This document shows, piece after piece, positions 1 to 55,808 of a stretch of 64,000 nucleotides of DNA. The notes below the pieces were generated by a model, which was given only the letters and a program-made list of their open reading frames with translations, was not told the DNA's origin and did not search any database. The DNA lies in NCBI GenBank assembly GCA_000002435.2, contig CM018793.1, one strand, 5' to 3'. Position 1 is the first letter of the stretch; each line of letters begins with the position of its first letter. Source of the stretch: Giardia intestinalis. Lineage: Eukaryota. The translations under genes were made by a program, and so were the position numbers.

Positions 1-62
1 TCGTCGTGGGGGGCCTCGTGGGCTTCTTGTGTTGGTGGTTTGTGTGTAGAGGGAAGGCGTAG
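1..62 (+). pseudogene. 3' end (…VVGGLVGFLCWWFVCRGKA*) of an upstream VSP unit that is truncated by the window edge
   Basis: Identical to the last 62 nt of units 1-4. TAG stop at 60-62. Confidence 0.9.
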
Positions 63-72
63 GTACTTAGGT

Positions 73-79
73 AGTGAAT
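73..79 (+). terminator. Giardia poly(A) signal AGTGAAT (AGTRAAY) 11 nt after the VSP stop codon. It recurs at 1908, 3743, 5578 and 7413
   Basis: Exact match to the Giardia AGTRAAY consensus at the expected distance from the stop. One copy per repeat unit. Confidence 0.7.
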
Positions 80-130
80 GCTATGAGTGATGATAATGGG
101 TGATAGTGGGTGATAGTATGATAGTGGAGT

Positions 131-1897
131 GTGATATGCACAACAGCCAGTAACGGAGTATGCACTGCTTGTAATACAGCTAACGGCCTGTTCAAGAACC
201 CAGCTACAGCACCGAAGTCTGGTAGTGAGTGCATCCTGTGCTGGGATACCAAGGGAGCAGATGGATATACGGGGGTGGCTAACTGCGCCACATGTACGGC
301 ACCAGCTAGTAGTCCAGGACCTGCCACGTGTACTGAGTGCAAGGCTGGGTACGTTACGAAGGACAGTGCATGTGAGAAGTGCCAAGGGAACTGTGCCACC
401 TGTGAGACTGAGGCGACCCACTGTACCTCTTGTAAGGGAAATACGTTCCTGAAGACTGATACTAACACTTGCGTAGAGGCTGGTCAATGCACTGGAAATA
501 AGTACCCCGACCCAAGCACCGGCAAGTGCACAGCTTGTAACGCTCAAGAAGTGGGGATAGATGGATGCGACACATGTGAGTATGATACGACGCTGCAGAA
601 GCCGAAGTGCCTGACCTGTACTGGTAAGATAGTCAAGGAAGAGGCCGACGGGACGACCACCTGCATTGCTGAGGGGGCTTGTACCCAAAACGGGAACGAT
701 GGTCCGAACTTTCTAACTGAACCGAACAAAAAGTGCATTCTCTGCAGTAATAATGTAGATTCAACCCCTGGCAATACAGGTGTTCTTGGTTGTAGCACAT
801 GCTCTAAAGCTAATTCTGGTACAAATCCTCAGTGCAAGACATGCCTCGACGGATACTACAATAGCGCAAATAGTGGTAGTGGTACCGCTACATGCACAGT
901 CTGTGGCGAGAATTGCGCCACCTGCACTCAAGCTGGCAATAATCAGTGTACTAAATGCAAGCCTGGATTCTTCATGAAAGGCAGTGGTCCTACTGGTGAG
1001 TGCCTTCCTTGTGATAATGCACAGGAGGGCATCGATGGGTGTGCTGAGTGCACTGGTCCTGCAGGGTCCCTCAAGTGTACTAAGTGCAAGCCTAACAGGA
1101 AGCCCGTTGGAACCTCAGACAACTATACATGCACAGAGAAGACCTGCGAGGATGAGACTGCGTGTGGGGGTACCTCTGGTGCCTGTGATGCCATGATAAT
1201 AGATGATAAGGGCAATGCAAAGCACTACTGTTCCTACTGTGGGGATAGTACTAAGTTCCCCATTGATGGACTATGTGTCAGTACTGGTAGCAATGCAAAT
1301 GGTAATACTTGTACCAGTCATACATGTACATCATGTGCTGCTAACTACTTCCTCTATATGAACGGCTGTTATAGTGTATCAGCTCAACCTGGCAACTACA
1401 TGTGCAAGAAAGCAGATAATAATGGGATATGCACAGAGGCGGCCAACAATAAGTACTTCATAGTCCCAGGGGCATCCAATCAGAATCAGTCTGTACTAGC
1501 ATGTGGTAACCCCCTAGGCACACTAGTAGATACTAAGGCATACGTGGGGGTCGAGGGCTGCTCTCAGTGTACAGCCCCGACAGCTCTAACAACAGCTGGC
1601 ATGACCGCTGCTGTGTGTACCTCCTGTGACAGTGATAGGAAGCCCAACAAGGATGGTACTGGGTGTGTGCTGTGCTCTGACACCAACTGCAAGAGCTGTG
1701 TGATGGACGGTGTGTGTGAGGAGTGCAACAGTGGCTTCAGCCTAGACAGCAGTGGGGCCTCCTGTGTGTCCTCTGGCGCCAACAGGAGCGGGCTCTCCAC
1801 GGGGGCCATCGCGGGGATCTCCGTCGCCGTGGTCGTCGTCGTGGGGGGCCTCGTGGGCTTCTTGTGTTGGTGGTTTGTGTGTAGAGGGAAGGCGTAG
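131..1897 (+). pseudogene. VSP copy 1, a 588-codon ORF ending ...CRGKA. It has no in-frame ATG for about 281 codons and no signal peptide, so it is a 5'-truncated VSP body or cassette
   Basis: Many CXXC motifs, a GGCY motif and a C-terminal TM helix with the invariant CRGKA tail. The track 'M' is a GTG. The frame opens after TAG at 122-124 and the first in-frame ATG is near position 975. Stops close all three frames in the 68-bp spacer. Confidence 0.85.
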
Positions 1898-1965
1898 GTA
1901 CTTAGGTAGTGAATGCTATGAGTGATGATAATGGGTGATAGTGGGTGATAGTATGATAGTGGAGT

Positions 1966-3732
1966 GTGATATGCACAACAGCCAGTAACGGAGTATGCAC
2001 TGCTTGTAATACAGCTAACGGCCTGTTCAAGAACCCAGCTACAGCACCGAAGTCTGGTAGTGAGTGCATCCTGTGCTGGGATACCAAGGGAGCAGATGGA
2101 TATACGGGGGTGGCTAACTGCGCCACATGTACGGCACCAGCTAGTAGTCCAGGACCTGCCACGTGTACTGAGTGCAAGGCTGGGTACGTTACGAAGGACA
2201 GTGCATGTGAGAAGTGCCAAGGGAACTGTGCCACCTGTGAGACTGAGGCGACCCACTGTACCTCTTGTAAGGGAAATACGTTCCTGAAGACTGATACTAA
2301 CACTTGCGTAGAGGCTGGTCAATGCACTGGAAATAAGTACCCCGACCCAAGCACCGGCAAGTGCACAGCTTGTAACGCTCAAGAAGTGGGGATAGATGGA
2401 TGCGACACATGTGAGTATGATACGACGCTGCAGAAGCCGAAGTGCCTGACCTGTACTGGTAAGATAGTCAAGGAAGAGGCCGACGGGACGACCACCTGCA
2501 TTGCTGAGGGGGCTTGTACCCAAAACGGGAACGATGGTCCGAACTTTCTAACTGAACCGAACAAAAAGTGCATTCTCTGCAATAACACTGCAGATTCAAC
2601 CCCTGGCAATACAGGTGTTCTTGGTTGTAGCACATGCTCTAAAGCTAATTCTGGTACAAATCCTCAGTGCAAGACATGCCTCGACGGATACTACAATAGC
2701 GCAAATAGTGGTAGTGGTACCGCTACATGCACAGTCTGTGGCGAGAATTGCGCCACCTGCACTCAAGCTGGCAATAATCAGTGTACTAAATGCAAGCCTG
2801 GATTCTTCATGAAAGGCAGTGGTCCTACTGGTGAGTGCCTTCCTTGTGATAATGCACAGGAGGGCATCGATGGATGTGCTGAGTGCACTGGTCCTGCAGG
2901 ATCCCTCAAGTGTACAAAGTGCAAGCCTAACAGGAAGCCCGTTGGAACCTCAGACAACTATACATGCACAGAGAAGACCTGCGAGGATGAGACTGCGTGT
3001 GGGGGTACCTCTGGTGCCTGTGATGCCATGATAATAGATGATAAGGGCAATGCAAAGCACTACTGTTCCTACTGTGGGGATAGTACTAAGTTCCCCATTG
3101 ATGGACTATGTGTCAGTACTGGTAGCAATGCAAATGGTAATACTTGTACCAGTCATACATGTACATCATGTGCTGCTAACTACTTCCTCTATATGAACGG
3201 CTGTTATAGTGTATCAGCTCAACCTGGCAACTACATGTGCAAGAAAGCAGATAATAATGGGATATGCACAGAGGCGGCCAACAATAAGTACTTCATAGTC
3301 CCAGGGGCATCCAATCAGAATCAGTCTGTACTAGCATGTGGTAACCCCCTAGGCACACTAGTAGATACTAAGGCATACGTGGGGGTCGAGGGCTGCTCTC
3401 AGTGTACAGCCCCGACAGCTCTAACAACAGCTGGCATGACCGCTGCTGTGTGTACCTCCTGTGACAGTGATAGGAAGCCCAACAAGGATGGTACTGGGTG
3501 TGTGCTGTGCTCTGACACCAACTGCAAGAGCTGTGTGATGGACGGTGTGTGTGAGGAGTGCAACAGTGGCTTCAGCCTAGACAGCAGTGGGGCCTCCTGT
3601 GTGTCCTCTGGCGCCAACAGGAGCGGGCTCTCCACGGGGGCCATCGCGGGGATCTCCGTCGCCGTGGTCGTCGTCGTGGGGGGCCTCGTGGGCTTCTTGT
3701 GTTGGTGGTTTGTGTGTAGAGGGAAGGCGTAG
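1966..3732 (+). pseudogene. VSP copy 2, same structure. Carries the 'NNTA' variant at the site A SNP cluster
   Basis: Same as copy 1. Five substitutions lie within 12 bp at 2581-2592 relative to copy 1. Confidence 0.85.
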
Positions 3733-3800
3733 GTACTTAGGTAGTGAATGCTATGAGTGATGATAATGGGTGATAGTGGGTGATAGTATGATAGTGGAGT

Positions 3801-5567
3801 GTGATATGCACAACAGCCAGTAACGGAGTATGCACTGCTTGTAATACAGCTAACGGCCTGTTCAAGAACCCAGCTACAGCACCGAAGTCTGGTAGTGAGT
3901 GCATCCTGTGCTGGGATACCAAGGGAGCAGATGGATATACGGGGGTGGCTAACTGCGCCACATGTACGGCACCAGCTAGTAGTCCAGGACCTGCCACGTG
4001 TACTGAGTGCAAGGCTGGGTACGTTACGAAGGACAGTGCATGTGAGAAGTGCCAAGGGAACTGTGCCACCTGTGAGACTGAGGCGACCCACTGTACCTCT
4101 TGTAAGGGAAATACGTTCCTGAAGACTGATACTAACACTTGCGTAGAGGCTGGTCAATGCACTGGAAATAAGTACCCCGACCCAAGCACCGGCAAGTGCA
4201 CAGCTTGTAACGCTCAAGAAGTGGGGATAGATGGATGCGACACATGTGAGTATGATACGACGCTGCAGAAGCCGAAGTGCCTGACCTGTACTGGTAAGAT
4301 AGTCAAGGAAGAGGCCGACGGGACGACCACCTGCATTGCTGAGGGGGCTTGTACCCAAAACGGGAACGATGGTCCGAACTTTCTAACTGAACCGAACAAA
4401 AAGTGCATTCTCTGCAATAACACTGCAGATTCAACCCCTGGCAATACAGGTGTTCTTGGTTGTAGCACATGCTCTAAAGCTAATTCTGGTACAAATCCTC
4501 AGTGCAAGACATGCCTCGACGGATACTACAATAGCGCAAATAGTGGTAGTGGTACCGCTACATGCACAGTCTGTGGCGAGAATTGCGCCACCTGCACTCA
4601 AGCTGGCAATAATCAGTGTACTAAATGCAAGCCTGGATTCTTCATGAAAGGCAGTGGTCCTACTGGTGAGTGCCTTCCTTGTGATAATGCACAGGAGGGC
4701 ATCGATGGATGTGCTGAGTGCACTGGTCCTGCAGGATCCCTCAAGTGTACAAAGTGCAAGCCTAACAGGAAGCCCGTTGGAACCTCAGACAACTATACAT
4801 GCACAGAGAAGACCTGCGAGGATGAGACTGCGTGTGGGGGTACCTCTGGTGCCTGTGATGCCATGATAATAGATGATAAGGGCAATGCAAAGCACTACTG
4901 TTCCTACTGTGGGGATAGTACTAAGTTCCCCATTGATGGACTATGTGTCAGTACTGGTAGCAATGCAAATGGTAATACTTGTACCAGTCATACATGTACA
5001 TCATGTGCTGCTAACTACTTCCTCTATATGAACGGCTGTTATAGTGTATCAGCTCAACCTGGCAACTACATGTGCAAGAAAGCAGATAATAATGGGATAT
5101 GCACAGAGGCGGCCAACAATAAGTACTTCATAGTCCCAGGGGCATCCAATCAGAATCAGTCTGTACTAGCATGTGGTAACCCCCTAGGCACACTAGTAGA
5201 TACTAAGGCATACGTGGGGGTCGAGGGCTGCTCTCAGTGTACAGCCCCGACAGCTCTAACAACAGCTGGCATGACCGCTGCTGTGTGTACCTCCTGTGAC
5301 AGTGATAGGAAGCCCAACAAGGATGGTACTGGGTGTGTGCTGTGCTCTGACACCAACTGCAAGAGCTGTGTGATGGACGGTGTGTGTGAGGAGTGCAACA
5401 GTGGCTTCAGCCTAGACAGCAGTGGGGCCTCCTGTGTGTCCTCTGGCGCCAACAGGAGCGGGCTCTCCACGGGGGCCATCGCGGGGATCTCCGTCGCCGT
5501 GGTCGTCGTCGTGGGGGGCCTCGTGGGCTTCTTGTGTTGGTGGTTTGTGTGTAGAGGGAAGGCGTAG
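3801..5567 (+). pseudogene. VSP copy 3. Its translation is identical to copy 2
   Basis: Identical translation to copy 2. Confidence 0.85.
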
Positions 5568-5635
5568 GTACTTAGGTAGTGAATGCTATGAGTGATGATA
5601 ATGGGTGATAGTGGGTGATAGTATGATAGTGGAGT

Positions 5636-7402
5636 GTGATATGCACAACAGCCAGTAACGGAGTATGCACTGCTTGTAATACAGCTAACGGCCTGTTCAA
5701 GAACCCAGCTACAGCACCGAAGTCTGGTAGTGAGTGCATCCTGTGCTGGGATACCAAGGGAGCAGATGGATATACGGGGGTGGCTAACTGCGCCACATGT
5801 ACGGCACCAGCTAGTAGTCCAGGACCTGCCACGTGTACTGAGTGCAAGGCTGGGTACGTTACGAAGGACAGTGCATGTGAGAAGTGCCAAGGGAACTGTG
5901 CCACCTGTGAGACTGAGGCGACCCACTGTACCTCTTGTAAGGGAAATACGTTCCTGAAGACTGATACTAACACTTGCGTAGAGGCTGGTCAATGCACTGG
6001 AAATAAGTACCCCGACCCAAGCACCGGCAAGTGCACAGCTTGTAACGCTCAAGAAGTGGGGATAGATGGATGCGACACATGTGAGTATGATACGACGCTG
6101 CAGAAGCCGAAGTGCCTGACCTGTACTGGTAAGATAGTCAAGGAAGAGGCCGACGGGACGACCACCTGCATTGCTGAGGGGGCTTGTACCCAAAACGGGA
6201 ACGATGGTCCGAACTTTCTAACTGAACCGAACAAAAAGTGCATTCTCTGCAGTAATAATGTAGATTCAACCCCTGGCAATACAGGTGTTCTTGGTTGTAG
6301 CACATGCTCTAAAGCTAATTCTGGTACAAATCCTCAGTGCAAGACATGCCTCGACGGATACTACAATAGCGCAAATAGTGGTAGTGGTACCGCTACATGC
6401 ACAGTCTGTGGCGAGAATTGCGCCACCTGCACTCAAGCTGGCAATAATCAGTGTACTAAATGCAAGCCTGGATTCTTCATGAAAGGCAGTGGTCCTACTG
6501 GTGAGTGCCTTCCTTGTGATAATGCACAGGAGGGCATCGATGGATGTGCTGAGTGCACTGGTCCTGCAGGATCCCTCAAGTGTACAAAGTGCAAGCCTAA
6601 CAGGAAGCCCGTTGGAACCTCAGACAACTATACATGCACAGAGAAGACCTGCGAGGATGAGACTGCGTGTGGGGGTACCTCTGGTGCCTGTGATGCCATG
6701 ATAATAGATGATAAGGGCAATGCAAAGCACTACTGTTCCTACTGTGGGGATAGTACTAAGTTCCCCATTGATGGACTATGTGTCAGTACTGGTAGCAATG
6801 CAAATGGTAATACTTGTACCAGTCATACATGTACATCATGTGCTGCTAACTACTTCCTCTATATGAACGGCTGTTATAGTGTATCAGCTCAACCTGGCAA
6901 CTACATGTGCAAGAAAGCAGATAATAATGGGATATGCACAGAGGCGGCCAACAATAAGTACTTCATAGTCCCAGGGGCATCCAATCAGAATCAGTCTGTA
7001 CTAGCATGTGGTAACCCCCTAGGCACACTAGTAGATACTAAGGCATACGTGGGGGTCGAGGGCTGCTCTCAGTGTACAGCCCCGACAGCTCTAACAACAG
7101 CTGGCATGACCGCTGCTGTGTGTACCTCCTGTGACAGTGATAGGAAGCCCAACAAGGATGGTACTGGGTGTGTGCTGTGCTCTGACACCAACTGCAAGAG
7201 CTGTGTGATGGACGGTGTGTGTGAGGAGTGCAACAGTGGCTTCAGCCTAGACAGCAGTGGGGCCTCCTGTGTGTCCTCTGGCGCCAACAGGAGCGGGCTC
7301 TCCACGGGGGCCATCGCGGGGATCTCCGTCGCCGTGGTCGTCGTCGTGGGGGGCCTCGTGGGCTTCTTGTGTTGGTGGTTTGTGTGTAGAGGGAAGGCGT
7401 AG
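5636..7402 (+). pseudogene. VSP copy 4, a mosaic: it has the copy-1 allele at site A (SNNV) and the copy-2 allele at site B
   Basis: Its translation equals copy 1, but its alternate-frame ORFs match copies 2 and 3 around 6540-6580. Confidence 0.85.
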
Positions 7403-7470
7403 GTACTTAGGTAGTGAATGCTATGAGTGATGATAATGGGTGATAGTGGGTGATAGTATGATAGTGGAGT

Positions 7471-9186
7471 GTGATATGCACAACAGCCAGTAACGGAGTA
7501 TGCACTGCTTGTAATACAGCTAACGGCCTGTTCAAGAACCCAGCTACAGCACCGAAGTCTGGTAGTGAGTGCATCCTGTGCTGGGATACCAAGGGAGCAG
7601 ATGGATATACGGGGGTGGCTAACTGCGCCACATGTACGGCACCAGCTAGTAGTCCAGGACCTGCCACGTGTACTGAGTGCAAGGCTGGGTACGTTACGAA
7701 GGACAGTGCATGTGAGAAGTGCCAAGGGAACTGTGCCACCTGTGAGACTGAGGCGACCCACTGTACCTCTTGTAAGGGAAATACGTTCCTGAAGACTGAT
7801 ACTAACACTTGCGTAGAGGCTGGTCAATGCACTGGAAATAAGTACCCCGACCCAAGCACCGGCAAGTGCACAGCTTGTAACGCTCAAGAAGTGGGGATAG
7901 ATGGATGCGACACATGTGAGTATGATACGACGCTGCAGAAGCCGAAGTGCCTGACCTGTACTGGTAAGATAGTCAAGGAAGAGGCCGACGGGACGACCAC
8001 CTGCATTGCTGAGGGGGCTTGTACCCAAAACGGGAACGATGGTCCGAACTTTCTAACTGAACCGAACAAAAAGTGCATTCTCTGCAATAACACTGCAGAT
8101 TCAACCCCTGGCAATACAGGTGTTCTTGGTTGTAGCACATGCTCTAAAGCTAATTCTGGTACAAATCCTCAGTGCAAGACATGCCTCGACGGATACTACA
8201 ATAGCGCAAATAGTGGTAGTGGTACCGCTACATGCACAGTCTGTGGCGAGAATTGCGCCACCTGCACTCAAGCTGGCAATAATCAGTGTACTAAATGCAA
8301 GCCTGGATTCTTCATGAAAGGCAGTGGTCCTACTGGTGAGTGCCTTCCTTGTGATAATGCACAGGAGGGCATCGATGGATGTGCTGAGTGCACTGGTCCT
8401 GCAGGATCCCTCAAGTGTACAAAGTGCAAGCCTAACAGGAAGCCCGTTGGAACCTCAGACAACTATACATGCACAGAGAAGACCTGCGAGGATGAGACTG
8501 CGTGTGGGGGTACCTCTGGTGCCTGTGATGCCATGATAATAGATGATAAGGGCAATGCAAAGCACTACTGTTCCTACTGTGGGGATAGTACTAAGTTCCC
8601 CATTGATGGACTATGTGTCAGTACTGGTAGCAATGCAAATGGTAATACTTGTACCAGTCATACATGTACATCATGTGCTGCTAACTACTTCCTCTATATG
8701 AACGGCTGTTATAGTGTATCAGCTCAACCTGGCAACTACATGTGCAAGAAAGCAGATAATAATGGGATATGCACAGAGGCGGCCAACAATAAGTACTTCA
8801 TAGTCCCAGGGGCATCCAATCAGAATCAGTCTGTACTAGCATGTGGTAACCCCCTAGGCACACTAGTAGATACTAAGGCATACGTGGGGGTCGAGGGCTG
8901 CTCTCAGTGTACAGCCCCGACAGCTCTAACAACAGCTGGCATGACCGCTGCTGTGTGTACCTCTTGTGGTGAGAGTAAGAAGCCCAACAAGGATGGCACT
9001 GGGTGTGTGCTGTGCTCTGTGGGTGATTGCAAGAGCTGTGTGATGGATAATATATGTGGGGAGTGCAACAGTGGCTTCAGCATAGACAATGGTAAGTGCG
9101 TGTCCTCTGGCAGTAATAGGAGCGGGCTCTCCACGGGGGCCATCGCGGGGATCTCCGTGGCTGGTCTCGTTGGGCTTCTGTGTTAG
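7471..9186 (+). pseudogene. VSP copy 5, the terminal copy. Its last ~230 bp have diverged and the TM region is shortened, so it ends ...VAGLVGLLC* without CRGKA
   Basis: Identical to copies 2 and 3 up to about 8955, then about 85% identity with an internal deletion in the TM segment. The stop is at 9184-9186. Confidence 0.85.
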
Positions 9187-9804
9187 TGATGACTACTGGC
9201 CCGGGGTGGGCATCCGCTGTCCATCCGCCCGGTGCTGCTACGTGCCCGTGGAGGTCTGGACGCCCGCTGCAACCAGGGTGGAGAGAGTCGGCGCTGCGGC
9301 ACCCCCGCTGGGTCTCGCCGTGAGTGAGGGCAGAAGCTCTCGGGGGCCCCGGGGGCAATGCCTGATGTGCAGAGCAGTGGACAGCTCAGCCGTGGATTTA
9401 AAATAGCGCGTCGCTCGATGGCGCTCCCCGGCCTGCCGAAGCAGCGGGTGCTCGACTGCGTAGCATAGGCGCCGAACCACGCCTGCAGCCGTGGGAGGCC
9501 GGCGCAGCATGGGCGGTCCCTGCACAGGGTGGCTCGGACCCGCCACCCGGCCGTTGCGTGCAGGCACCGCCCACTCGGTCCGCTCGGCTGGCCTCTGCAA
9601 AAGACCGGCACACGGAGTGGCAGGACCTGTGCACCCCCGAGGGACAGGGGCTCGACTCGCCCTCTGAGGATCGCTCCGTGCCGACTCCGGGCCCGCCGTT
9701 CGACCACGCGGAGGCCGGGCATCCGGGAGCCTCCACAGCAGAGGTAGTGTGGCGGATCCTTGCTGATTCGGACACATTAAAAACTTGTATCCTCAAGGAT
9801 TCAC

Positions 9805-12303
9805 ATGAGGGTTCTCATCCTTCTTCTTCTGCACGGTATTTTCTCAGAGTGCACCCAGGACAGCGACTGCGGGGGTGCGACCGGCGTCTGCAACGTCACG
9901 ATCGGCGGCAAGAAGTACTGCTCCAAGTGCGACGGAGCGCGGGTCCCCGTCAACGGAGACTGCAGGCTGCTGAGCCTCTCGCGGGGTATATGCATAGTGC
10001 CCACGGGCAGCAACCCCACTCCGGGCTCCTGCTCGGGCTGCATCCGGGACTTCCTCTTCTACAGGGGCGGGTGCTACCGCACGGCATCCCTGATCAACGC
10101 CATATGCAAGGAGAAGCACGTCGTCGAGGAGGGGATGTACTGCGGGGCGTGCGCCATCGAGGGCGACGTCCCGATCGACGGGGTGTGCGTGCCGGCTGGG
10201 AGTGCTGCAGGAAACACGTGCGACAAGGGCGTGTGCACAACATGCACAGGCGGCTACTTCCTCCACTACGGGTCGTGCTACAAGTTTGATAGTTCTCCCG
10301 GCAGCATTGTGTGTCCTAATCAAGCTGACACCACTGGCTCTGTCTGCGGCTCTTGCGGATCGAAGTTCGTCAAGAACCCCAGTGCGAGCTCGTCTGCCAC
10401 CTCCTGCCTCGCGTGCTACGGGCTGGACGGGACCCTCTTCTGCGAGCGCTGCCGGATGAACGTGCTCACGGGCGCAGATGTGAAGCCTACCCTCTGCACG
10501 CAGTGCAAAATAGGCTACGTGCCCGTCGACGGCCGGTGCCTCTCCAACTACTCCGCCCTGGCCGCGCTCGCCGGGTGCTCCGACCCCCGGGGCAACGGGC
10601 TCTGCGACGCGTGCTCCTCCGGCTTCATGCTCTTCTACGGGAGCTGCTACTCCGTCGACGGCCCCCTCGCCCAGGCCATCTGCGCGGCCGAGGACCAGAT
10701 CTACGTCAACGGCCGGGTGCTCTGCAAGAGGTGCGCCCAGCCCGACCACTACCCCCTGAACGGCGTCTGCATCGGCCAGAGCTCGGACGGGACCGACGGA
10801 CACACGTGCAGCGGCGGGTCGTGCACGGTCTGCAGCACCAAACAGACCGCAGACAATACCCCCGAGTTCTTCCTGTTCTACAGCGGCTGCTACGACATCA
10901 CCCACCCCATCGGGAAGTCGATCTGCTCCGCTGTAGCTGATGGCGCCTGCACAGCATGCGCGTCCTCGGACTCCTCGAGTGTGATAACCATCACTGCAGA
11001 TGGCCAGTCATCCAAGTGCCTCGCCTGCTGGGACGACACGGTGGGGGGAGTAGCCAACTGCGGGGGCTGCTCGCTCGCCAGTGATGGCCCCGCCAAGGTT
11101 GTGTGCACCAGGTGCTCGGACTCGACGGAGCCCGGCGAGGATGGCGCGTGCCCCCGAGCCCTCCCGCCCGCAACGCCCGAAGGGTGCGCCGTCCAGGGCT
11201 GCCAGGCGTGCTCGAAGGACTCTGCCACGACGTGCGACGCCTGCTTCGAGCCTCTCATCATGAAGGAGGACAAGACGAAGTGCTTCGGGAGCTGCCTGGC
11301 GCTGGGCCCGGGCTACTACAACGCCAGCGGGGCCTGTGCGCGCTGCGTGGAGAACTGTCTCTCCTGCGTAGACGGGACCTCGTGCTCCCGGTGCGCAGAC
11401 GGGTACTACCTCGAGGTGTCCGGCAGCGACTCCTCAACGGGGGCGTGCAGGCCGTGTGCCGCCGGGTGCTCAACGTGTAATGACGGCAGTAGCGCAGGTT
11501 GCACGACGTGTCTCCTCGGATACTACATCGCGGCCGAGGGAAAAAGGCAACCTGGGCAGTGTGTGAAGTGTGACTCTAGTATAGGCGGTTACATGGGCGT
11601 CCAACACTGCATTGTCTGCCGCAGCACCGTGGGGGACGGGGGAGCCAAGAACGTCGTCTGCCAGAAGTGCGAGGACGGGTATCTCAAGGAGACGGACCAG
11701 GGCAAGACCGTCTGCGAGGCGCCCCCGCCCACATGCACCGTGGAGCTGTGCGCTCTGTGCGTGGCCGACGACCCCAATAGATGCGAGCACTGCACGGCCG
11801 GCGCGTACCTCTGCCCGCGGACGGCGACGTGCACGAAGGACTGCGCCAGCTGCGGCGGCTCGATGTACCCCGACGAGGACCTCGGGGAGTGCCAGCCGTG
11901 CGACATCGCGAACTGCCGGGTCTGCGCGACGGGGCTCAAGTGCGAGAGCTGCGCGGAGAGCGCCGTCCCCATCTCCCCGGACGTCTACCACACGGCGTGC
12001 ATGGGCTGCAGCGACACCGGGGGCATGGACGGCTGGGTGGGCCTCGCGGGGTGCACGACCTGCGAGCTGACCGACAAGGGCGGCGGGAGCGTCAACTGCC
12101 TCGACCCTGGCTACTACCGGCGGGGCGGGCTCGGCGGGGGAGCAATCGCCGCCATCGTCATCGTCGTCCTCCTCGTCCTGGCCGTCGCCGGCTTCCTCGT
12201 CTGGTGGTTCGTCTTCAGGAGGGGCGGCCGGCCCAAGCGCGGGGCGAAGTACACGTCGCTCACGCGGGGCGAGTCCTACGACTACCGCCAGTCCCTGATA
12301 TGA
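9805..12303 (+). CDS. High-cysteine membrane protein (HCMP, VSP-like). It has a signal peptide, about 90 Cys in CXXC/CXC motifs, one C-terminal TM and a 38-aa basic cytoplasmic tail with no CRGKA
   Basis: ATG at 9805 followed by MRVLILLLLHGIFS. Motifs such as FLFYRGGCY and FMLFYGSCY are present. The TM is GGAIAAIVIVVLLVLAVAGFLVWWFVF. About 68% GC. Confidence 0.9.
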   Translation: MRVLILLLLHGIFSECTQDSDCGGATGVCNVTIGGKKYCSKCDGARVPVNGDCRLLSLSRGICIVPTGSNPTPGSCSGCIRDFLFYRGGCYRTASLINAICKEKHVVEEGMYCGACAIEGDVPIDGVCVPAGSAAGNTCDKGVCTTCTGGYFLHYGSCYKFDSSPGSIVCPNQADTTGSVCGSCGSKFVKNPSASSSATSCLACYGLDGTLFCERCRMNVLTGADVKPTLCTQCKIGYVPVDGRCLSNYSALAALAGCSDPRGNGLCDACSSGFMLFYGSCYSVDGPLAQAICAAEDQIYVNGRVLCKRCAQPDHYPLNGVCIGQSSDGTDGHTCSGGSCTVCSTKQTADNTPEFFLFYSGCYDITHPIGKSICSAVADGACTACASSDSSSVITITADGQSSKCLACWDDTVGGVANCGGCSLASDGPAKVVCTRCSDSTEPGEDGACPRALPPATPEGCAVQGCQACSKDSATTCDACFEPLIMKEDKTKCFGSCLALGPGYYNASGACARCVENCLSCVDGTSCSRCADGYYLEVSGSDSSTGACRPCAAGCSTCNDGSSAGCTTCLLGYYIAAEGKRQPGQCVKCDSSIGGYMGVQHCIVCRSTVGDGGAKNVVCQKCEDGYLKETDQGKTVCEAPPPTCTVELCALCVADDPNRCEHCTAGAYLCPRTATCTKDCASCGGSMYPDEDLGECQPCDIANCRVCATGLKCESCAESAVPISPDVYHTACMGCSDTGGMDGWVGLAGCTTCELTDKGGGSVNCLDPGYYRRGGLGGGAIAAIVIVVLLVLAVAGFLVWWFVFRRGGRPKRGAKYTSLTRGESYDYRQSLI

Positions 12304-12334: not shown

Positions 12335-14352
12335 TTGCTCTGCAGCGACTTACAGGGGGCAGGCCAGGCAGCCGTGTCCAGGATGGGCGCGCCCGGCTGT
12401 CCCGGCAGAAGGAGGCGCCGGAAGTGCTCGGAGACGGTGTCCTCCGTGTGCTGCATGCAATCAGGAGGCAAGCACACTCTATTCTACGGCAGCTGCTACA
12501 CGAGCACACCAGCACGGGACGGAAGCTTAGGTAGCCCTCTGTGCTCCGACACAGTCGGGTCCGGTGGATACAGGGGCGCCTCTGGTGTCCAAGCCGCGTG
12601 TCCCCCGTACGTGGCAAAACGGCATCGCCCTGTGTGCTAGGTGCTGCCACACAACAGAGAACAGAAGCGTTTATCCAACCGACCATCATGCCAGCTAAGG
12701 GACCCCGTACTTGTGTCAACGGATACTCACATCCTGCCACAAGACACGCCGCCCTACAGGTGTGGATACTAGGGCCGGCACAGCTCGACCGGGCTTGCTA
12801 TAGGTGCAGAGCAGGCCAGTACGAACTGGAGCATGCGACCATCTGCACAGAGTGTGCGAACAACTCCTGCGCCTGGGAGCGGTGCATGCGCCCTTGCTAG
12901 GGAGAGCTCGTCCCTCGAAGAGATCGCTTTGAGCGCACAAAGGACCAACCAAGGGGCGTGCACAGCCTGCTCCAACTCTGTAAAGCCCTTCCTGCTCTAC
13001 GGCGGCTGCTCCGAGGACAGGCTCTACATCTGCTCAAGACCCTGCTCAGAAAGCGGGTCGAATGCTTGCGAACAGTGGAGCAGTGCTTCCGGGTGGATCT
13101 TCTCTAAGAATGCGGGAGCAATGGAGACCGATATCTGTGCGATGACGCTCCAAATGGGGGCATTTCTGGCTGTGCCACGTGTAGGTACAATAACGGTGTG
13201 ACGTGTACGCGGTGCTCGGCGAGGCACCTCGGGGTGGATGGGAAGTCCTGCAGTGAGAGCTGCAGTGGAGACACTCAAGGAGTGTGCACAAAGGTAGCAG
13301 AGGGGAGCGAGTCAACTGAAGTGTCGTGCCGGTGCGTCTGCAGGATGGGCCTCTACAACAGCTCCGGAACCTGCACACCATGTACGGACTCGTGCGCTGT
13401 CTGCAAGGATGGCAAGTCAACCGGCTGCCAGCAGTGCAGCCCCGGCAAAGTCCTGGAGCCGTCAGTCGTCGCAAACGGTAATGCAAAATGTGTAGATGAG
13501 TGCGCTGTTGGTGACGACTGTGCAGAGTGCGGCATCACCATCGACGGCAGCAGGTACTGCACGCGCTGCAAGGACTCGAATATGTACCCTCTCAACGGGG
13601 TGTGTATTCCGAACACACAAAAAGACGCGTACTGCACCAACAAGGCAAATGGTGCTTGTACTACATGCTCAGGAGCGGCCTTCCTGATGAACGGGGGCTG
13701 CTACACAACGGAGCACTATCCAGGAAGCACTATCTGTGACAAACAGGCAGGCGGGAAGTGTGAGAAGACCAAGAAGGAGTACGGGATATCGGACGATGGA
13801 AAGCTGCTGGAGTGCGACCCGACATGTCTGGGGTGCACCGCCCCTGGCCCCGGCCGCTGCACCAGGTGCCCCTCTGACAAGCTCCTGAAGAGGGCCTCAG
13901 GTGCCGCCACCGGGAGCTGCATTGACCCCAACGCCTGTGTAGACGGGTACTATGCAGACGGAGACGCGTGCCTGCCCTGCGCCACTCCGGGGTGCAAGAC
14001 CTGCGGGCATGCCTCCTTCTGCACAGAGTGCGCGGGGGAGCTCTTCGTGAGCCTGGACGGGCAGTCGTGCCTGGGGGAGTGCACCGGGGACAAGGTGGTG
14101 GGAGAGGTGCCCGGTGGCGTGCGGAGGTGCTGGTGCGAGCGGGGTTTCCTGCCGGCGCTGGACAGATCCGAGTGTGTGCTCCCAACCGAGTGTCCCCCTG
14201 ACATGCCATCGTGTGCTGCCTGCGATACGTCGGGTAGGTGCCTCTTGTGTGCCGCCTCGAATCATAACATCCAGACAGATCAGCGGACATGTGCAGAAGG
14301 GTGCGGTGCCAGGGCCTCATCGAACCAGGGGGTGTGTCACAAAAACTCTTAG
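12335..14352 (+). pseudogene. Frameshifted high-cysteine (VSP/HCMP-like) pseudogene. The coding signal alternates between frames 2, 1, 2 and 1, and there is no TM or CRGKA at the end
   Basis: VSP-type motifs occur in successive ORFs: TLFYGSCY (12335..12640), CYRCRAG...CTECANNSC (12541..12900), CTACSNSVKPFLLYGGC (12833..13201) and DDAPNGGISGCATCRYNNGVTCTRC running into 13198..14352. The last ORF 'starts' at a GTG. Confidence 0.7.
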
Positions 14353-48825: not shown

Positions 48826-49135
48826 ATTATTTTGCCACATATACTACGCCAATCTCGTGTTCGCTTCGGGCTCTACGTGGAGACGCGGGGCGCGCGGGTC
48901 GAGGCCTACGGGGCGGGCGCGGCCGGGACGCGGCTGCTCGGGGCGGCAGAGGTCCGGCTCGGGGGCCTGCTCGACGGGCGGGAGGTGCAGGCGGAGGCCC
49001 CGCTGGTCTGGGCAGGCGCAGAGATCGGGCGCGTGGCGGCGCGGATCGCGGCGGAGCAGGCGCTCCGAGTCCAGAAGTAAACAGCACAACCTGCAAACAC
49101 AGAAGCGCTTGTACTGTATGTGTTGGCGCTCCCGC

Positions 49136-49206
49136 GCATCAATGGTTTAGGGGTAGAATGCTTGCTTGCCAAGCAAGAGAGCCGGGTCCGAGTCCCGGTT
49201 GATGCA
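49136..49206 (+). tRNA. tRNA-Gly, anticodon GCC
   Basis: Acceptor GCATCAA/TTGATGC, anticodon stem CTTGC/GCAAG with loop TTGCCAA, and T arm CCGGG-TCCGAGT-CCCGG. Near-identical in layout to eukaryotic tRNA-Gly(GCC). Confidence 0.9.
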
Positions 49207-49427
49207 CTTTTCGCCCGGCCCGAGAAAACGGCCATCATATCATTACAGGGAGCGGGCTCAGGTGCATCGGCCCACACTGCGCCGAGACCTCATGAGGACC
49301 TCCCGCCTACTGTGCGTACAGTTACCTAAACGCATCTGTAATGGCTAAAGCACGCGGCGAGTAAGCGACCAGTTGAGAGAGCAAAGGTAGCTACCTCAGC
49401 AGGCCAGAGCAAGCAAGTAGGCAGTAG

Positions 49428-51150
49428 ATGTGTTCACTACCGAGCTCCCTCCTGGGGCAGCCCTCGGAGTGGGAGTCTCAGAGAGGAGGCCGCCGGGCAC
49501 CCCCACCCGCTGCACGCAATCCGGTCCACACCACAGCCTTTCTACTGATACCCCTGTTGGTGGTGAGCACCATCGCAGTGACCTGCCGATCAGATGGGAA
49601 CCATACAGCGACCTGCCAGACAGACAAGTGCGAGACGGTCGGTAGCACAGAGATCTGCACCCAGTGCAGGGCCGGGGCGTCCCGGTCGACGGCTTCTGCT
49701 GGCCCCCCGGCTCCATCCAGGCCGCGGCAGCCGGGTGCACCAAAGCAGACGGGGCTGCCCTCGACAAGACGGCAACCACCTGTGGAAAGTGCGGCGATGG
49801 GTACCTCCTCTTCATGGGCGGATGCTACAACAAGGATGCACACCCTGGCAGTGACATATGCACAGCAGCCAAGGATGGAGTATGCACTGCTTGTAAGGCA
49901 GATAACGGCCTGTTCAAGAACCCGGCTGCACCATCAGAGAAGGGTAGTGAGTGCATACTCTGTCATGATGCCACGGGAGCAAATGGATATAAGGGAGTGG
50001 CTAACTGCATACAGTGTCAGGCACCACAGAGTGCAGGAGCAGCTACATGCACTGCCTGTCAAGATGGATACTACAAGAACTCTCAGACATGTGAAAGGTG
50101 TGATGAAGCTTGCCTGACCTGTGAGACTGATGCGGCCCATTGTACCTTTTGTAAGGCCGGGAAGTATCTCGATGGGGATCAATGTGCTGATATCTGTGGA
50201 AGTGGCAATGATAAGTATGCTGACGAAGCTACCAGAACGTGCAAGGCATGTAGTACAATAACTGGGTGCACCGCGTGTGAATATAATCCAGTGACCAAGA
50301 AGCCAAAGTGCACCGCTTGTAGTGATAAGAAGGTGAAGACAGAGCTTGACGGGACAACCACTTGTGTAGATGCAAATGGGTGCGCAACAGATAACGTCGA
50401 CGGATCCCACTTTCTAAATCAAGCTAGAAATAAGTGTCTTCTTTGTAGCGATGACAAGACTAATACTAGCAGTCCACCTAATAAAGGACTTAAGGATTGT
50501 GGTAGGTGCAAAAAAGAAAGGGATGATGCAGCTTCAACCTGCTCAGAATGTCTGTCTGGATTTTATTTAGAAGACGCTTGCAAGACCTGTGATGCTAACT
50601 GTGCCGTGTGCTCTGAAAAAACACTAGTGGATAAGTGTAAAATATCCATGCAAGAGTGACTTTTAACCGGGATAGATGAAGGAAAGTGCATTAAGTGTGA
50701 TGCGAAGGCGGCTGAGAATACTTATGTCAGCGTTGAGGGCTGCCTCTCTTGCATAACTCCAACCACCCCAGGTCCGGCCAGCCGCGACCGCTGCAAGATC
50801 GGCTACACGTTACAGGGAGCAACGTGCGCGAAGGTATGCGAGGACGAGACTTCATGTAGAGGTACCTCCGGCTCTTGTGATGCTATAGTAATCGATGCTA
50901 ATGGAAAGGAGCTTCACTGCTCTCATTCGGCAGAGGAGCAGATAACGTGCCAAATGATGGGAAGCGTGTTAATAAAAACAGTACAAACGGAAATACTTGT
51001 GATAATCCTGTCTGTGAGTCTTACAATCAGGGATGCTTCTTATCTACAGGCGGTACCACCAGGTAGTAGACCTACCCAACAGTTACATGTGCAAGAGAGC
51101 AGATGGTGGCATTTTCACAGAAGCAGCAAGCGACAAGTACTTCGTGGCCT
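49428..51150 (+). pseudogene. VSP pseudogene, frameshifted and 3'-truncated. It keeps the signal-peptide and N-terminal region that the tandem-array units lack
   Basis: Frame A reads ...FLLIPLLVVSTIAVTCRSDGNHTATCQTDKCE. It shifts near 49680 into frame B (ORF 49664..50659: GGCYNKD...GVCTACKADNGLFKNP...), which stops at 50659. VSP-like text then continues in other frames (KCIKCDAKAAENTYVSVEGC..., YMCKRADGGIFTEAASDKYF) to about 51150. There is no TM or CRGKA. Confidence 0.8.
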
Positions 51151-53738
51151 TTGATATTATGCTGCTGGACTCGTCTGGGTGTGGTCCAGAGGTCTCACGA
51201 GTGGCCCTCGCTCAATTCCTGACCAATCCAGACGAGGGTTGGTTTTGGATAACATAACGAAAGATTCCCACCCATCAGTACATCCAGAGCCTAGCGCCTT
51301 CCCTGGTCGCTCTGTGGGTGTGTGCTCAGACCGAATGCGTACTTCGGTCCTTTCGGGGTTCAGGCCTTCTTACGGACTCTCTGGTCCACCAGTGGCGCCT
51401 CTTCTTGGTCTTCCTTCGTGGCGGGTGAAGCTCCGGTCGCTGTCTTTTTTAGATGCCCCGTCCGCCAGGGGCTGCCATCGGGCTCTCCGCTGGCTGGGCC
51501 CTCGGTGTCCGGGCAGCTGTGGCTCGAGTCAGTGCTCCCACGGTCGCGGTCACGTAGGTCTCAGTGGGCCGGCTGGTGGGTGAGGCAGGGGTATGGGGCG
51601 GTGAGGCTGGTGGGGACTGGTGGGGGCTGAGGTGGGGGGTGTCTGTATGTGCCTCTGGTCCCTCGATAGACTGGGGTGATCATAGCTGTGGTGACTGGGG
51701 GCTGTCCATCTGTGACTCACCCCTCTGTGTGCTCGTGGTCTGTGAGTGCCTCCACCCAGACAACCCTCAGGAGCCGTGCACACCAGACAGAGAGGATGAC
51801 CAAGGGGAGTCAAGTATCCCTGCCATGAGGGTGCACAGCAGCCAGCCTGGGCTGCATGGCCTGCTCAAGCGATGTAGTGACAGACGACTCCCTCTGACAG
51901 CAGCCCTGGTGACTGCACTGGTCTGCTCTCGAGGCTGAGTGACAGTGTGCACAGATGGACATGAGTGTAGGAGGGCCATCCACACACGGACAGACTGTGT
52001 GGACCCAGAGAGGACTGGAGTCTGCTCGGGACACGCTGACTGTAGACCTCATGCGAGAGCCCCAGACAGCCACCCGAGAGGCAGTGACAGACACGGGCAC
52101 CAGAGATCCCTAGCCAGACACATTGCTATGCTCATCCACAGGGGCATCAGAGGGCCAGGTGGAGTCACCCTCACAGTCAGGGCCTGGTAGGAAGCCAGAG
52201 GACTCACGCAGCACAGCAGAGCAGGCCCAAGGGAGGCACACTCCAGGCAGGTGAGCAGTGGCAGAGCCCTGACAGCTGCCAGCCCCCATGACACCCAGGC
52301 AGGCACCAGACTCACCGAAGACTCCGCTGGCCTCCATCGATGACCCGAGGGGGCAGCGACCAGAGGAGTGAGGAGGCCTTCGGACACCACAAGAGGCCCG
52401 GCTGTCCAGCAGGCGATGGAGCACAGGTGACCTCTGAGCACCACAAAGGCACAGGAGCCGACCATCAGAGTGATGCCCGATCACAGAGACGACCACGAGC
52501 ACCCTCCACCCACTCTGAGGGGCTGTCGATCATCCCACTGCCTCTCATAGCAGACCTCCTTGGAGGCAGTGCAGTGGGTGGCCCAGCTCATGCACGCCTC
52601 CCTCAGTATAGGGTGCCCCGACTCTCCCCGAGAAGTCATCAGAGCCACGAGGAGGGGTCAAGGTCCTGGTGGACCACATCGGGAACTCCTCGAGGGCACA
52701 GCAGGTGAGGTATGGGTAACCATCAGCGTGCTCCTCTCTGCATGATAGAGCATCCTGAGACCAAGGAGGATCACCTCTGCCTACGGACGACACACAGCGC
52801 TCCACAACGAGGACCCACCAGGAGCAGCACAGCTGACCACGGAGACAGTGCAGTCACTGGTGCCCCACCATGCCAGTCTTCTGAGCCATCACACTAGAGG
52901 CACGAGAGAACCCCATCCCATCCACAGGGTCATCCACACCCCTGCTGGTCCCAGGCGAACTACCGTCGAGGCACTGGACAGGGCATGCCAGGGGGCTCAG
53001 CAGACACGCACAGAGCAACAGGAGAGGCTGCGATGGCCTGCCTCAGTCCTCACGTACCGGCCAGGCAGAGAGGCAGTACTGCCCGAGGCATGCAGGGGCC
53101 AGGGAGGCACTCAGTCAGGGGGACACGACACGATCGTCGGTGCCTGTGTCTTGGAGTGCAACGAAGGCTGGGGATCAGACACAACCACCTTAGCAAACAG
53201 AGCGGGGATCACCCCAATGACCCACCGAACCCAGGGGCACATACAGACACCCCCCACCTCAGCCCCCACCAGTCCCCACCAGCCTCACCGCCCCATACCC
53301 CTGCCTCACCCACCAGCCGGCCCACTGAGACCTACGTGACCGCGACCGTGGGAGCACTGACTCGAGCCACAGCTGCCCGGACACCGAGGGCCCAGCCAGC
53401 GGAGAGCCCGATGGCAGCCCCTGGCGGACGGGGCATCTAAAAAAGACAGCGACCGGAGCTTCACCCGCCACGAAGGAAGACCAAGAAGAGGCGCCACTGG
53501 TGGACCAGAGAGTCCGTAAGAAGGCCTGAACCCCGAAAGGACCGAAGTACGCATTCGGTCTGAGCACACACCCACAGAGCGACCAGGGAAGGCGCTAGGC
53601 TCTGGATGTACTGATGGGTGGGAATCTTTCGTTATGTTATCCAAAACCAACCCTCGTCTGGATTGGTCAGGAATTGAGCGAGGGCCACTCGTGAGACCTC
53701 TGGACCACACCCAGACGAGTCCAGCAGCATAATATCAA

Positions 53739-55753: not shown

Positions 55754-55808
55754 GCGGGAGCGCCAACACATACAGTACAAGCGCTTCTGTGTTTGCAGGT
55801 TGTGCTGT

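What the first reader, a model, noticed from the sequence alone, without database searches (positions are those of the whole stretch)
1..9186. Tandem array of at least 5 VSP copies that lack both start codon and signal peptide, suggesting silent cassettes
Each 1835-bp unit holds a 588-codon VSP reading frame with CXXC repeats, a TM segment, the invariant CRGKA tail and a correctly placed AGTGAAT poly(A) signal. The frame opens only 2 codons before the track 'start', which is a GTG. The first in-frame ATG sits about 281 codons in, and there is no N-terminal hydrophobic signal peptide. All three frames are closed by stops in the 68-bp inter-unit spacer, so read-through from the upstream unit is impossible. 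A tiny ATG-CAC-AAC-AGC-CAG-TAA mini-ORF sits at the head of every unit in another frame. The VSP pseudogene in the 49-51 kb inverted repeat is about 85% identical to the array over the shared body, but continues 5' into a signal peptide. The tandem unit's left breakpoint sits exactly where that homology starts (…ICTAAKDGVCTAC versus (GTG)ICTTASNGVCTAC). The array therefore looks like iterated duplication of a 5'-truncated VSP body plus 3'UTR. The copies are analogous to the silent donor cassettes of recombinational antigenic-variation systems, although Giardia VSP switching is thought not to involve DNA rearrangement. Alternatively only the founder copy upstream of the window is intact, and the rest are unusually well preserved dead copies.
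Basis: partly seen in the sequence, partly recalled or inferred. Interest (0 to 1): 0.85.

Follow-up and report, generated by a model that had tools for sequence, protein, structure and literature searches.

The report
Known Giardia pseudo-VSP tandem array
This is a real tandem array of start-less, signal-peptide-less surface-antigen gene copies in the Giardia WB reference genome, but the copies are already annotated as pseudogenes and both such arrays and the "silent cassette" idea are already published, so it is ordinary.

Summary
Window 1-9186 is an 1835-bp head-to-tail repeat. It holds four complete near-identical units, the tail of a fifth upstream, and a last unit with a decayed 3' end. 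Each unit has an open VSP frame with 26 CXXC motifs, a TM segment, a CRGKA tail and the VSP poly(A) signal. None has an ATG, signal peptide or VSP initiator. One claim fails: the 49-51 kb pseudogene is not about 85% identical to the unit (75% nt over 316 nt; 44% aa).

The window is Giardia intestinalis WB chromosome 5. The units are the RefSeq pseudogenes pVSP GL50803_0050050 to 0050055. The next annotated pVSP upstream, 0050049, is a divergent pseudogene without start or signal peptide, so no intact founder was found. The same spacer-to-body fusion (GGTGATA|TGCACA) occurs in divergent WB pVSPs and in other Giardia contigs. The truncation therefore predates this amplification.

Best reading: recent unequal-crossover expansion inside an older pseudo-VSP linear array. 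The copies cannot be expressed as surface antigen. Six near-identical copies add no antigenic diversity, which argues against a working donor archive. Linear pseudo-VSP arrays and the cassette or gene-conversion-reservoir hypothesis were published in 2010 and 2020. Novelty: already known. Interest is low.

The parts
1..62 (+). 3' end (TM segment, CRGKA, TAG stop at 60-62) of the unit upstream of the window, annotated pVSP GL50803_0050050
   Evidence: Window 1-130 is identical to 1836-1965. Table S7 of the 2022 preprint lists six pVSPs with this head, 0050050 to 0050055. The SNNV/NNTA variants assign window unit 1 to 0050051.
63..124 (+). Inter-unit spacer, repeated at 1898-1959, 3733-3794, 5568-5629 and 7403-7464. 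It holds the extended VSP poly(A) signal TACTTAGGTAGTGAATGCTA (64-83; AGTGAAT at 73-79) followed by C-poor GGTGATAG-type repeats. Stops close all three frames.
   Evidence: The same 20-mer is listed for 0050049 to 0050054 in Table S6 of the preprint. Homologous spacers occur in L008 and L010.
125..1897 (+). Array unit 1 (pVSP GL50803_0050051). An open VSP frame of 590 codons after TAG 122-124, with no ATG before codon 282 of the 588-codon frame counted from the GTG. Has TM, CRGKA and a stop codon.
1960..3732 (+). Array unit 2 (inferred pVSP GL50803_0050052). Differs from unit 1 at 7 nt.
3795..5567 (+). Array unit 3 (inferred pVSP GL50803_0050053). Carries the same 7 variants as unit 2.
5630..7402 (+). 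Array unit 4 (inferred pVSP GL50803_0050054). A recombinant haplotype: block A as in unit 1, block B as in units 2 and 3.
7465..9186 (+). Terminal unit 5 (pVSP GL50803_0050055, 1722 nt). Identical to the others up to about 8963. The tail (8964-9186) is patchily diverged, has TM deletions and a TGG-to-TAG stop, and lacks CRGKA, the poly(A) signal and the spacer. It marks the 3' boundary of the array.
   Evidence: The 1722-nt length matches the Table S7 entry.
136..153 (+). ATG-CAC-AAC-AGC-CAG-TAA mini-ORF in frame +2 at the head of each unit. It is an incidental by-product of ...GAT|ATG CAC A... at the fusion point, with no sign of function.
   Evidence: The same bases form the conserved junction in L010.

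Best explanation
Window 1-9186 is the downstream part of a linear pseudo-VSP array on chromosome 5 of Giardia intestinalis WB (RefSeq pVSP GL50803_0050050 to 0050055).

What the unit is. The 1835-bp unit has four parts: (i) a VSP body that lacks the first ~107 codons (signal peptide and first Cys-rich segment); (ii) the conserved TM/CRGKA tail; (iii) the extended VSP poly(A) signal; (iv) a short GGTGATAG-repeat spacer fused directly to ...ATATGCACA (Ile-Cys-Thr).

Age of the truncation. This truncated architecture is old and is shared by many array pseudo-VSPs.

Inferred mechanism. One such unit was recently amplified to six copies by unequal crossing-over. The first exchange was probably between the conserved 3' tails of neighbouring array members. 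Later exchanges were between the now-identical repeats. Short gene-conversion patches then created the few copy-specific variants.

Expression. The copies have no ATG, signal peptide or VSP initiator, so they cannot produce a surface VSP. At most they are weakly transcribed.

Likely role. Any role would be the one already proposed in the literature: raw material for occasional segmental recombination with other VSP genes over evolutionary time. They are not programmed donors in antigenic switching.
For: SHOWN
- Exact 1835-bp periodicity, with 3-7 differences between units.
- Two variant blocks form haplotypes, and unit 4 is a recombinant of them.
- The terminal unit keeps a different, decayed tail.
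- No ATG before residue 282, no hydrophobic N-terminus, and stops in all spacer frames.
- No PyAATGTT initiator anywhere in 1-9186.
- The window is WB chr5: housekeeping proteins match KAE83048xx / GL50803_0021234 exactly.
- The units are listed as pVSP pseudogenes in Table S7 of 10.1101/2022.03.07.483299, with six copies of this head.
- The next annotated pVSP upstream, 0050049, is a divergent pseudogene.
- No protein more than 67% identical exists in a 5.8-billion-sequence database that includes the WB proteome.
- The junction is shared with divergent pVSPs 0050045 and 0050046 (47-60% aa identity) and with L010. L008 shows a longer ancestral-looking form that keeps an ATG.
- The unit is a mosaic. 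Its best-matching VSP changes every 50-100 residues, at 65-96% identity (mostly 80-92%).

FROM THE LITERATURE
- Linear arrays have ~60-bp spacers and downstream members without an Inr (PMC2996952).
[quoted passage not shown] INFERRED
- The first crossover lay between the tails of 0050049 and the ancestral unit. This rests on the poly(A) 20-mer that Table S6 lists with identical score for 0050049 to 0050054 and 0050182.
Against: - ORFs stay open in array members that have diverged by 40-50% at the protein level. This is not expected for freely decaying pseudogenes. It suggests either continued exchange with functional genes or some selection on the reading frame.
- Some pVSPs are transcribed. 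In one RNA-seq data set GL50803_50049 is at about 6 log2 CPM and 50050 at about 1-2.6. The array is therefore not strictly silent.
- Copy number and the chromosome sequence upstream of the window could not be checked directly.
- Adjacency of 0050049 to 0050050 is inferred from consecutive identifiers and table order, not from sequence.
Confidence: 0.85

Rival explanations
1. Working silent donor cassettes. The units are copied by gene conversion into expressed VSP genes during infection, as in trypanosome VSG arrays, Borrelia vls or Anaplasma msp2 pseudogenes.
For: - The copies are promoterless and start-less but have open frames.
- They have conserved flanks: a shared head junction and a conserved 3' tail.
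- The unit has a mosaic relationship to other VSPs.
- Open frames persist in divergent array members.
- The hypothesis has been raised in the literature.
Against: - The six copies differ by at most 3-4 amino acids, so they add no antigenic diversity.
- Outside the family-wide conserved C-terminus, the longest exact match to any catalogued VSP is 27-31 residues.
- About 136 WB VSPs each have their own initiator and signal peptide, and no single expression site is known.
- VSP switching is described as epigenetic or post-transcriptional, without DNA rearrangement.
Confidence: 0.06
2. Assembly artefact. A single-copy, or lower-copy, pseudo-VSP was inflated by the PacBio assembler.
For: - The unit is absent from the older Sanger-based protein set and from short-read-derived proteins.
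- Exact-product look-ups find nothing.
- A later study disputes one chr5 placement in this assembly.
Against: - Copy-specific clustered variants form haplotypes, including a recombinant one. A further variant (EDTT) is present in 0050050.
- The terminal copy has a distinct tail.
- The assembly used 200x PacBio coverage with read N50 12.7 kb and an optical map, and the authors reported no misassemblies.
- Near-identical 1.8-kb repeats are expected to collapse in Sanger and short-read assemblies, which would explain their absence there.
Confidence: 0.05
3. Regulatory RNA source. Read-through or antisense transcripts of the array feed the RNAi or miRNA pathways proposed to silence non-expressed VSPs, through the family-wide conserved 3' region repeated six times.
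For: - Low but non-zero RNA-seq signal for 50050, and a moderate signal for 50049.
- Most VSP loci show more antisense than sense reads.
Against: - No Rfam family matches in 1-10000.
- No small-RNA data could be examined here.
- G. muris psiVSP arrays are essentially untranscribed.
- The antisense 319-aa ORFs hit no protein family, and there is no sign of a dedicated promoter.
Confidence: 0.04

Closest known systems
Linear arrays of pseudo-VSPs (psiVSP/pVSP) in Giardia intestinalis WB (Adam et al. 2010, PMC2996952; Xu et al. 2020, PMC7000408; Rodriguez-Walker et al. 2022 preprint)
   Same: - Head-to-tail orientation and ~60-bp spacers.
- Downstream members without Inr, start codon or signal peptide.
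- Conserved TM/CRGKA tail and extended poly(A) signal.
- These very units are listed as pVSP GL50803_0050050 to 0050055.
   Different: Most described WB array members are divergent from one another; the closest pair cited is 94% identical. Here six copies are more than 99.5% identical. That degree of identity was not reported for head-to-tail copies in the 2010 Sanger assembly, where such copies probably collapsed.
Giardia muris psiVSP arrays, especially the internal chromosome-5 array (Xu et al. 2020, PMC7641422)
   Same: - Tandem arrays of signal-peptide-less VSP copies.
[quoted passage not shown]
- Interpreted as a reservoir for recombination or gene conversion.
   Different: - G. muris arrays are mostly next to telomeres.
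- The tail motif is GCRGK.
- They are reported as untranscribed.
- This array lies next to housekeeping genes within the window.
Silent cassette archives of recombinational antigenic variation (Trypanosoma brucei VSG arrays with 70-bp repeats, Borrelia vls cassettes, Anaplasma msp2 pseudogenes, Pneumocystis MSG)
   Same: - Promoterless, 5'-truncated copies with open frames, in tandem.
- Bounded by a conserved upstream repeat and a conserved 3' end.
   Different: - No dedicated expression site is known in Giardia.
- The cassettes here are near-identical, not diverse.
- No conversion into an expressed gene has been shown.
- Giardia switching is described as not involving DNA rearrangement.

Membership tests
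Giardia VSP (functional variant-specific surface protein) | Cys-rich ectodomain with many CXXC motifs; Pfam PF03302 | tested here: met
   26 CXXC motifs and 11.9% Cys. PF03302 hit at E = 7.5e-35, 121 bits against a cutoff of 31.4.
Giardia VSP (functional variant-specific surface protein) | C-terminal TM helix followed by a CRGKA cytoplasmic tail | tested here: met
   Present in units 1-4 and in the upstream partial unit. Not met by the terminal unit, which ends ...GLVGLLC*.
Giardia VSP (functional variant-specific surface protein) | ATG start followed by an N-terminal signal peptide | tested here: not met
   The frame opens after a TAG. The first Met is residue 282. The N-terminal maximum hydropathy is 1.1, against 2.3 for the signal peptide of WB VSP P0014. 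The head motif ICT.A..G.C sits at about residue 108 in intact VSPs but at residue 2 of the 588-codon frame (residue 4 of the 590-codon open frame) here.
Giardia VSP (functional variant-specific surface protein) | VSP initiator PyAATGTT at the start codon (135 of 136 intact WB VSPs, per the 2022 preprint) | tested here: not met
   No match in 1-9186. The nine matches in the window all lie elsewhere.
Giardia VSP (functional variant-specific surface protein) | Extended poly(A) signal ACTYAGRTAGTRAAY a few nt after the stop | tested here: met
   TACTTAGGTAGTGAATGCTA at 64-83 and in each of the five spacers. The same string is listed for 0050049 to 0050054 in Table S6.
Pseudo-VSP linear array (Adam 2010; Xu 2020) | Two or more head-to-tail VSP-like ORFs separated by very short spacers (mean 60 bp, up to 241 bp) | tested here: met
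   Five ORFs on the + strand with 62-nt stop-to-frame spacers (68 nt to the GTG).
Pseudo-VSP linear array (Adam 2010; Xu 2020) | Downstream members lack a proper start codon, Inr and signal peptide, and are annotated psiVSP/pVSP | tested here: met
   Annotated as pVSP GL50803_0050050 to 0050055 in Table S7.
Recombinational silent-cassette archive (VSG / vls / msp2 type) | Cassettes differ from one another, so that copying one changes the antigen | tested here: not met
   Units differ at 3-7 nt, giving at most 3 amino-acid changes among the units in the window, plus one more in 0050050.
Recombinational silent-cassette archive (VSG / vls / msp2 type) | Demonstrable transfer of cassette sequence into an expressed gene | tested here: inconclusive
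   Only old mosaicism was seen: segments mostly 80-92% identical, and exact runs of at most 31 aa outside the conserved tail. Only protein catalogues were available. No clone-resolved DNA or cDNA could be examined.
Recombinational silent-cassette archive (VSG / vls / msp2 type) | A dedicated expression site that receives the cassettes | not testable with these tools
   The literature reports about 136 VSPs, each with its own Inr and signal peptide, and no expression site.

The most novel reading that the evidence does not exclude
The conserved junction module could define recombination-competent cassettes. The module is the VSP 3' tail, the extended poly(A) signal, the C-poor GGTGATAG-repeat spacer and the fixed fusion to ...ATATGCACA. 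It is found in divergent WB pVSPs and in other Giardia genomes. On this reading the spacer repeat would work like the 70-bp repeats upstream of trypanosome VSG cassettes. Array pseudo-VSPs would then exchange segments with expressed VSPs at a meaningful rate, which would explain why their frames stay open after 40-50% protein divergence. Giardia would have a DNA-level diversification layer beneath its epigenetic or RNAi-based switching.
Probability: 0.07. Interest if true: 0.7.

Novelty: already known. Interest (0 to 1): 0.12.

Why it matters
As it stands, the finding re-discovers an annotated feature of the Giardia WB reference genome and a hypothesis already in print, so it changes nothing for the field.

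Two small points may be useful to specialists:
1. This is a clear case of a very recent six-copy amplification inside a G. intestinalis pseudo-VSP array. It gives a convenient marker locus for measuring unequal crossing-over and copy-number change between clones and isolates.
2. The spacer-to-body fusion is conserved across divergent pseudo-VSPs and across genomes, while the frames stay open. This is indirect evidence for continued sequence exchange between arrays and functional VSP genes, and it could be tested.

Tried and rejected
- Tandem Repeats Finder found nothing because its longest period is 500. The repeat was established with the repeat finder and a direct comparison instead.
- Extending the sequence upstream failed. 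The exact-product index holds no chr5 record for window genes, and neither the 832-aa neighbour nor the 307-aa internal-ATG product is on record. The upstream context was recovered from published Tables S6 and S7.
- P0004 turned out to be a solitary VSP in another isolate, not an array member. P0030 was likewise solitary.
- The bacterial promoter and terminator scan is irrelevant to Giardia and showed nothing above the shuffles for promoters.
- The Rfam scan of 1-10000 gave no match.
- The antisense 319-aa ORFs that span unit junctions, and the 179-aa ORF beyond the array, hit no Pfam family. I treat them as chance ORFs in compositionally biased DNA.
- A retroposition origin for the 5'-truncated copies was considered and rejected. 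There is no poly(A) tract after the poly(A) signal, the copies are tandem rather than dispersed, and the junction is a shared repeat spacer.
- The 49-51 kb pseudogene was considered as parent of the unit and rejected because identity is only 75% nt / 44% aa.
- The apparent ATG start of the homologue P0015 ('MICTAAS...') is a GTG called as a start by the gene finder. It is not evidence for a one-mutation-away start codon in use.

Full report
**1. What is in the sequence**

Window 1-9186 is a head-to-tail repeat with an exact 1835-bp period, with copies starting at 1, 1836, 3671, 5506 and 7341. Tandem Repeats Finder missed it only because its period limit is 500.

- Units 1-4 differ at 3-7 positions.
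- The fifth unit is identical up to about 8963 and then diverges.
- Each unit has a 588-codon frame counted from a GTG. The frame actually opens two codons earlier, straight after a TAG at 122-124.
- The translation is a typical VSP body. It has 26 CXXC motifs and 11.9% Cys, a Pfam PF03302 match at E = 7.5e-35, a C-terminal TM helix and the CRGKA tail.
- The extended VSP poly(A) signal TACTTAGGTAGTGAATGCTA follows the stop.
- The first in-frame Met is residue 282.
- The N-terminus is not hydrophobic.
- All three frames of the 62-nt spacer carry stops.
- The VSP initiator PyAATGTT is absent from the whole array.
- The mini-ORF ATGCACAACAGCCAGTAA exists in every unit, in frame +2. It is simply the fusion point read out of frame.

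- The last unit is 3'-decayed. Its tail has diverged in patches, has deletions in the TM region and ends at a TGG-to-TAG change. It has no CRGKA, no poly(A) signal and no spacer.
- The VSP pseudogene in the 49-51 kb inverted repeat is not about 85% identical. BLASTN gives 75% over 316 nt and almost nothing beyond. Protein identity is 44% over 278 columns.

**2. Where the window comes from, and what is already annotated**

Three housekeeping proteins in the window are exact matches to Giardia intestinalis WB (ATCC 50803) proteins KAE8304807, KAE8304811 (GL50803_0021234) and KAE8304820. All lie on a 4,018,654-bp contig, which is chromosome 5 of the PacBio reference.

The unit protein has no database relative above 67% identity, even though the database contains the WB proteome. 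This fits annotation of the units as pseudogenes. That is confirmed by Table S7 of Rodriguez-Walker et al. (bioRxiv 10.1101/2022.03.07.483299):

- The table lists six pVSP entries on NC_051860.1 whose sequence starts tggagtgtgatatgcacaacagccagtaacgg.
- These are GL50803_0050050 to 0050054 (1773 nt each, equal to window 125-1897 and so on) and GL50803_0050055 (1722 nt, equal to window 7465-9186).
- The SNNV and NNTA variants place window unit 1 as 0050051. The fragment at window 1-62 is the tail of 0050050.

**3.

I could not fetch chromosome sequence beyond the window. The same table gives the neighbours.

- GL50803_0050049 (1941 nt) retains part of the N-terminal region (…GDGYLLFMGGCYKTESQPGSDICTAASNGVCTEC…). 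It is frameshifted, has no ATG or signal peptide, and its body is only about 55% identical to the unit.
- It is therefore not an intact founder. Together with the absence of any close intact relative, this leaves the 'only the founder is intact' alternative without support.
- Adjacency of 0050049 to 0050050 is inferred. The basis is consecutive identifiers, adjacent rows in a genome-ordered expression table, and a poly(A) 20-mer that Table S6 lists with identical score for 0050049 to 0050054 and 0050182.

**4. The truncation is older than this array**

- Two further WB pVSPs, 0050045 and 0050046, start with the same head: WSDICTAASNGVCTTC and WSVICTAASSGVCTEC. 0050046 shares the exact 18-mer TGGAGTGTGATATGCACA with the unit.
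- Their bodies are only 60% and 47% identical to the unit at the protein level.
- Two contigs from unrelated ENA metagenome assemblies carry Giardia VSP arrays with homologous spacers.
  - L010 has two successive junctions with the identical fusion GGTGATA|TGCACAGCAGCCAGTAA.
  - L008 has a longer form in which the spacer is followed by ATGGGACTTCTCTTCATAGGAGGATGCTAC…GAGATATGCACA (MGLLFIGGCY…EICT). Relative to that form, the WB unit lacks about 57 nt, including that ATG.
- Several SP-less 'VSPs' of the old WB annotation begin MLYSDSDS…GGCY…ICT. This is the same spacer read in its Ser-Asp phase.
- In intact VSPs the ICT.A..G.C motif lies at about residue 108. In many SP-less homologues from WB, P15 and other isolates it lies at residues 2-40.

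So the unit belongs to a widespread class of array pseudo-VSPs with a stereotyped junction. It was not created by a private truncation event.

**5. How the six copies most likely arose (inferred)**

- The variants fall into two tight blocks. One has four changes within 10 nt, giving SNNV versus NNTA. The other has three synonymous changes within 43 nt.
- Unit 4 combines the block A allele of unit 1 with the block B allele of units 2, 3 and 5. This is the signature of unequal crossing-over, or of short conversion tracts between repeats.
- The terminal copy keeps a different, decayed tail. The internal copies carry an intact tail with the same poly(A) 20-mer as 0050049.
- This fits a first unequal exchange between the conserved 3' tails of 0050049 and an ancestral unit, followed by expansion through the resulting identical repeats.
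- The copy-specific variants and the distinct terminal tail argue against an assembly artefact. So do the 200x PacBio data with read N50 12.7 kb, optical-map scaffolding and a negative misassembly check. The exact copy number remains unverified here.

**6. Function**

Nothing in the sequence allows production of a surface VSP. There is no ATG, no signal peptide, no initiator, and stops lie upstream in every frame.

Published RNA-seq (PMC8700996, Table S1, log2 CPM) shows:
- about 6 for GL50803_50049;
- about 1-2.6 for 50050;
- no rows for 50051-50055 in the held part of the table. This is probably because reads that map to several copies were not counted.

Transcription is therefore low at best.

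The unit is a mosaic. Its best-matching VSP changes every 50-100 residues, at 65-96% identity (mostly 80-92%). Outside the family-wide conserved C-terminus, the longest exact run shared with any catalogued VSP is 27-31 residues. That shows old segmental exchange and no recent donation.

For the donor-archive idea this array is a weak case, because six near-identical cassettes add no antigenic variety.

One observation does point to continued exchange or frame maintenance. Array members that share the junction have diverged by 40-50% at the protein level, yet still show no stops in the roughly 400 residues shown.

**7. Comparison with what is known**

- Adam et al. 2010 (PMC2996952) described linear arrays holding over half of the WB vsp repertoire. 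Spacers average about 60 bp and downstream members lack the Inr. [quoted passage not shown]
- Xu et al. [quoted passage not shown] It reported evidence for recombination or gene conversion, and drew the analogy to Trypanosoma brucei and Pneumocystis archives.

**8. Verdict**

- The feature is real and is described correctly apart from two errors.
- It is a recent six-copy amplification inside an older pseudo-VSP linear array.
- Novelty: already known. Interest is low.
- What remains open is whether the conserved junction module and the persistent open frames reflect an active recombination role. I give that reading about 7%.

Noticed in passing
window 63-124 (and every 1835 bp); L010 1-60 and 1875-1945; L008 1-100, 1875-1935 and 2145-2215: The inter-unit spacer is a C-poor run (2 C in 62 nt) of ~10-nt GGTGATAG-type repeats directly after the extended VSP poly(A) signal. 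Homologous spacers occur at array junctions in two unrelated Giardia contigs. The reading phase of the repeat gives either TGA/TAG stops (here) or Ser-Asp runs, as in old WB ORFs that start MLYSDSDS... I found no description of this spacer family in the papers read.
   Followed up: partly
L008 1935-2147: In another Giardia array the same spacer is followed by a mini pseudo-VSP of only 70 codons (…CKSCVVDNICGECSDGFSLDNGKCVSSG…CRGKA). Array members are thus truncated at very different depths but share the same 3' tail, poly(A) signal and spacer module. This resembles vsp14 of Adam et al. 2010.
   Followed up: no
window 48864-51658 and 53231-56025: A perfect (100%) 2795-nt inverted repeat with 1572 nt between the arms. 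Each arm carries a frameshifted VSP pseudogene, tail-to-tail. Its signal-peptide-like stretch (AFLLIPLLVVSTIAV) is in a different frame from the body. This matches the known '-> <-' VSP pair arrangement, here with both copies pseudogenised.
   Followed up: partly
window 9805-12303 and 13198-14352: GC-rich DNA (62-66% GC, against about 51% in the array) holds two Cys-rich ORFs (832 and 384 aa) that hit PF03302. The first starts with a signal-peptide-like MRVLILLLLHGIFS and has an AT-rich ATTAAAAA element upstream. Its exact product is not on record, so it may be annotated differently or as a pseudogene (HCMP/CRMP-like).
   Followed up: partly
window 302-356: A 55-nt exact match (CCAGCTAGTAGTCCAGGACCTGCCACGTGTACTGAGTGCAAGGCTGGGTACGTTA) between the unit and the otherwise ~71%-identical pVSP GL50803_0050045. 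It looks like a short conversion patch between array members.
   Followed up: no
window 1564-2523 (-) and every 1835 bp: A 319-aa antisense ORF with a TTG start spans each unit junction. It has no Pfam match and is most likely a chance ORF in compositionally biased DNA.
   Followed up: partly
literature, PMC11169602: A 2024 comparison with strain Be-2 reports that a region placed at the 5' end of chr5 in the WB PacBio assembly belongs to chr4. I could not determine whether this window lies in that region.
   Followed up: no
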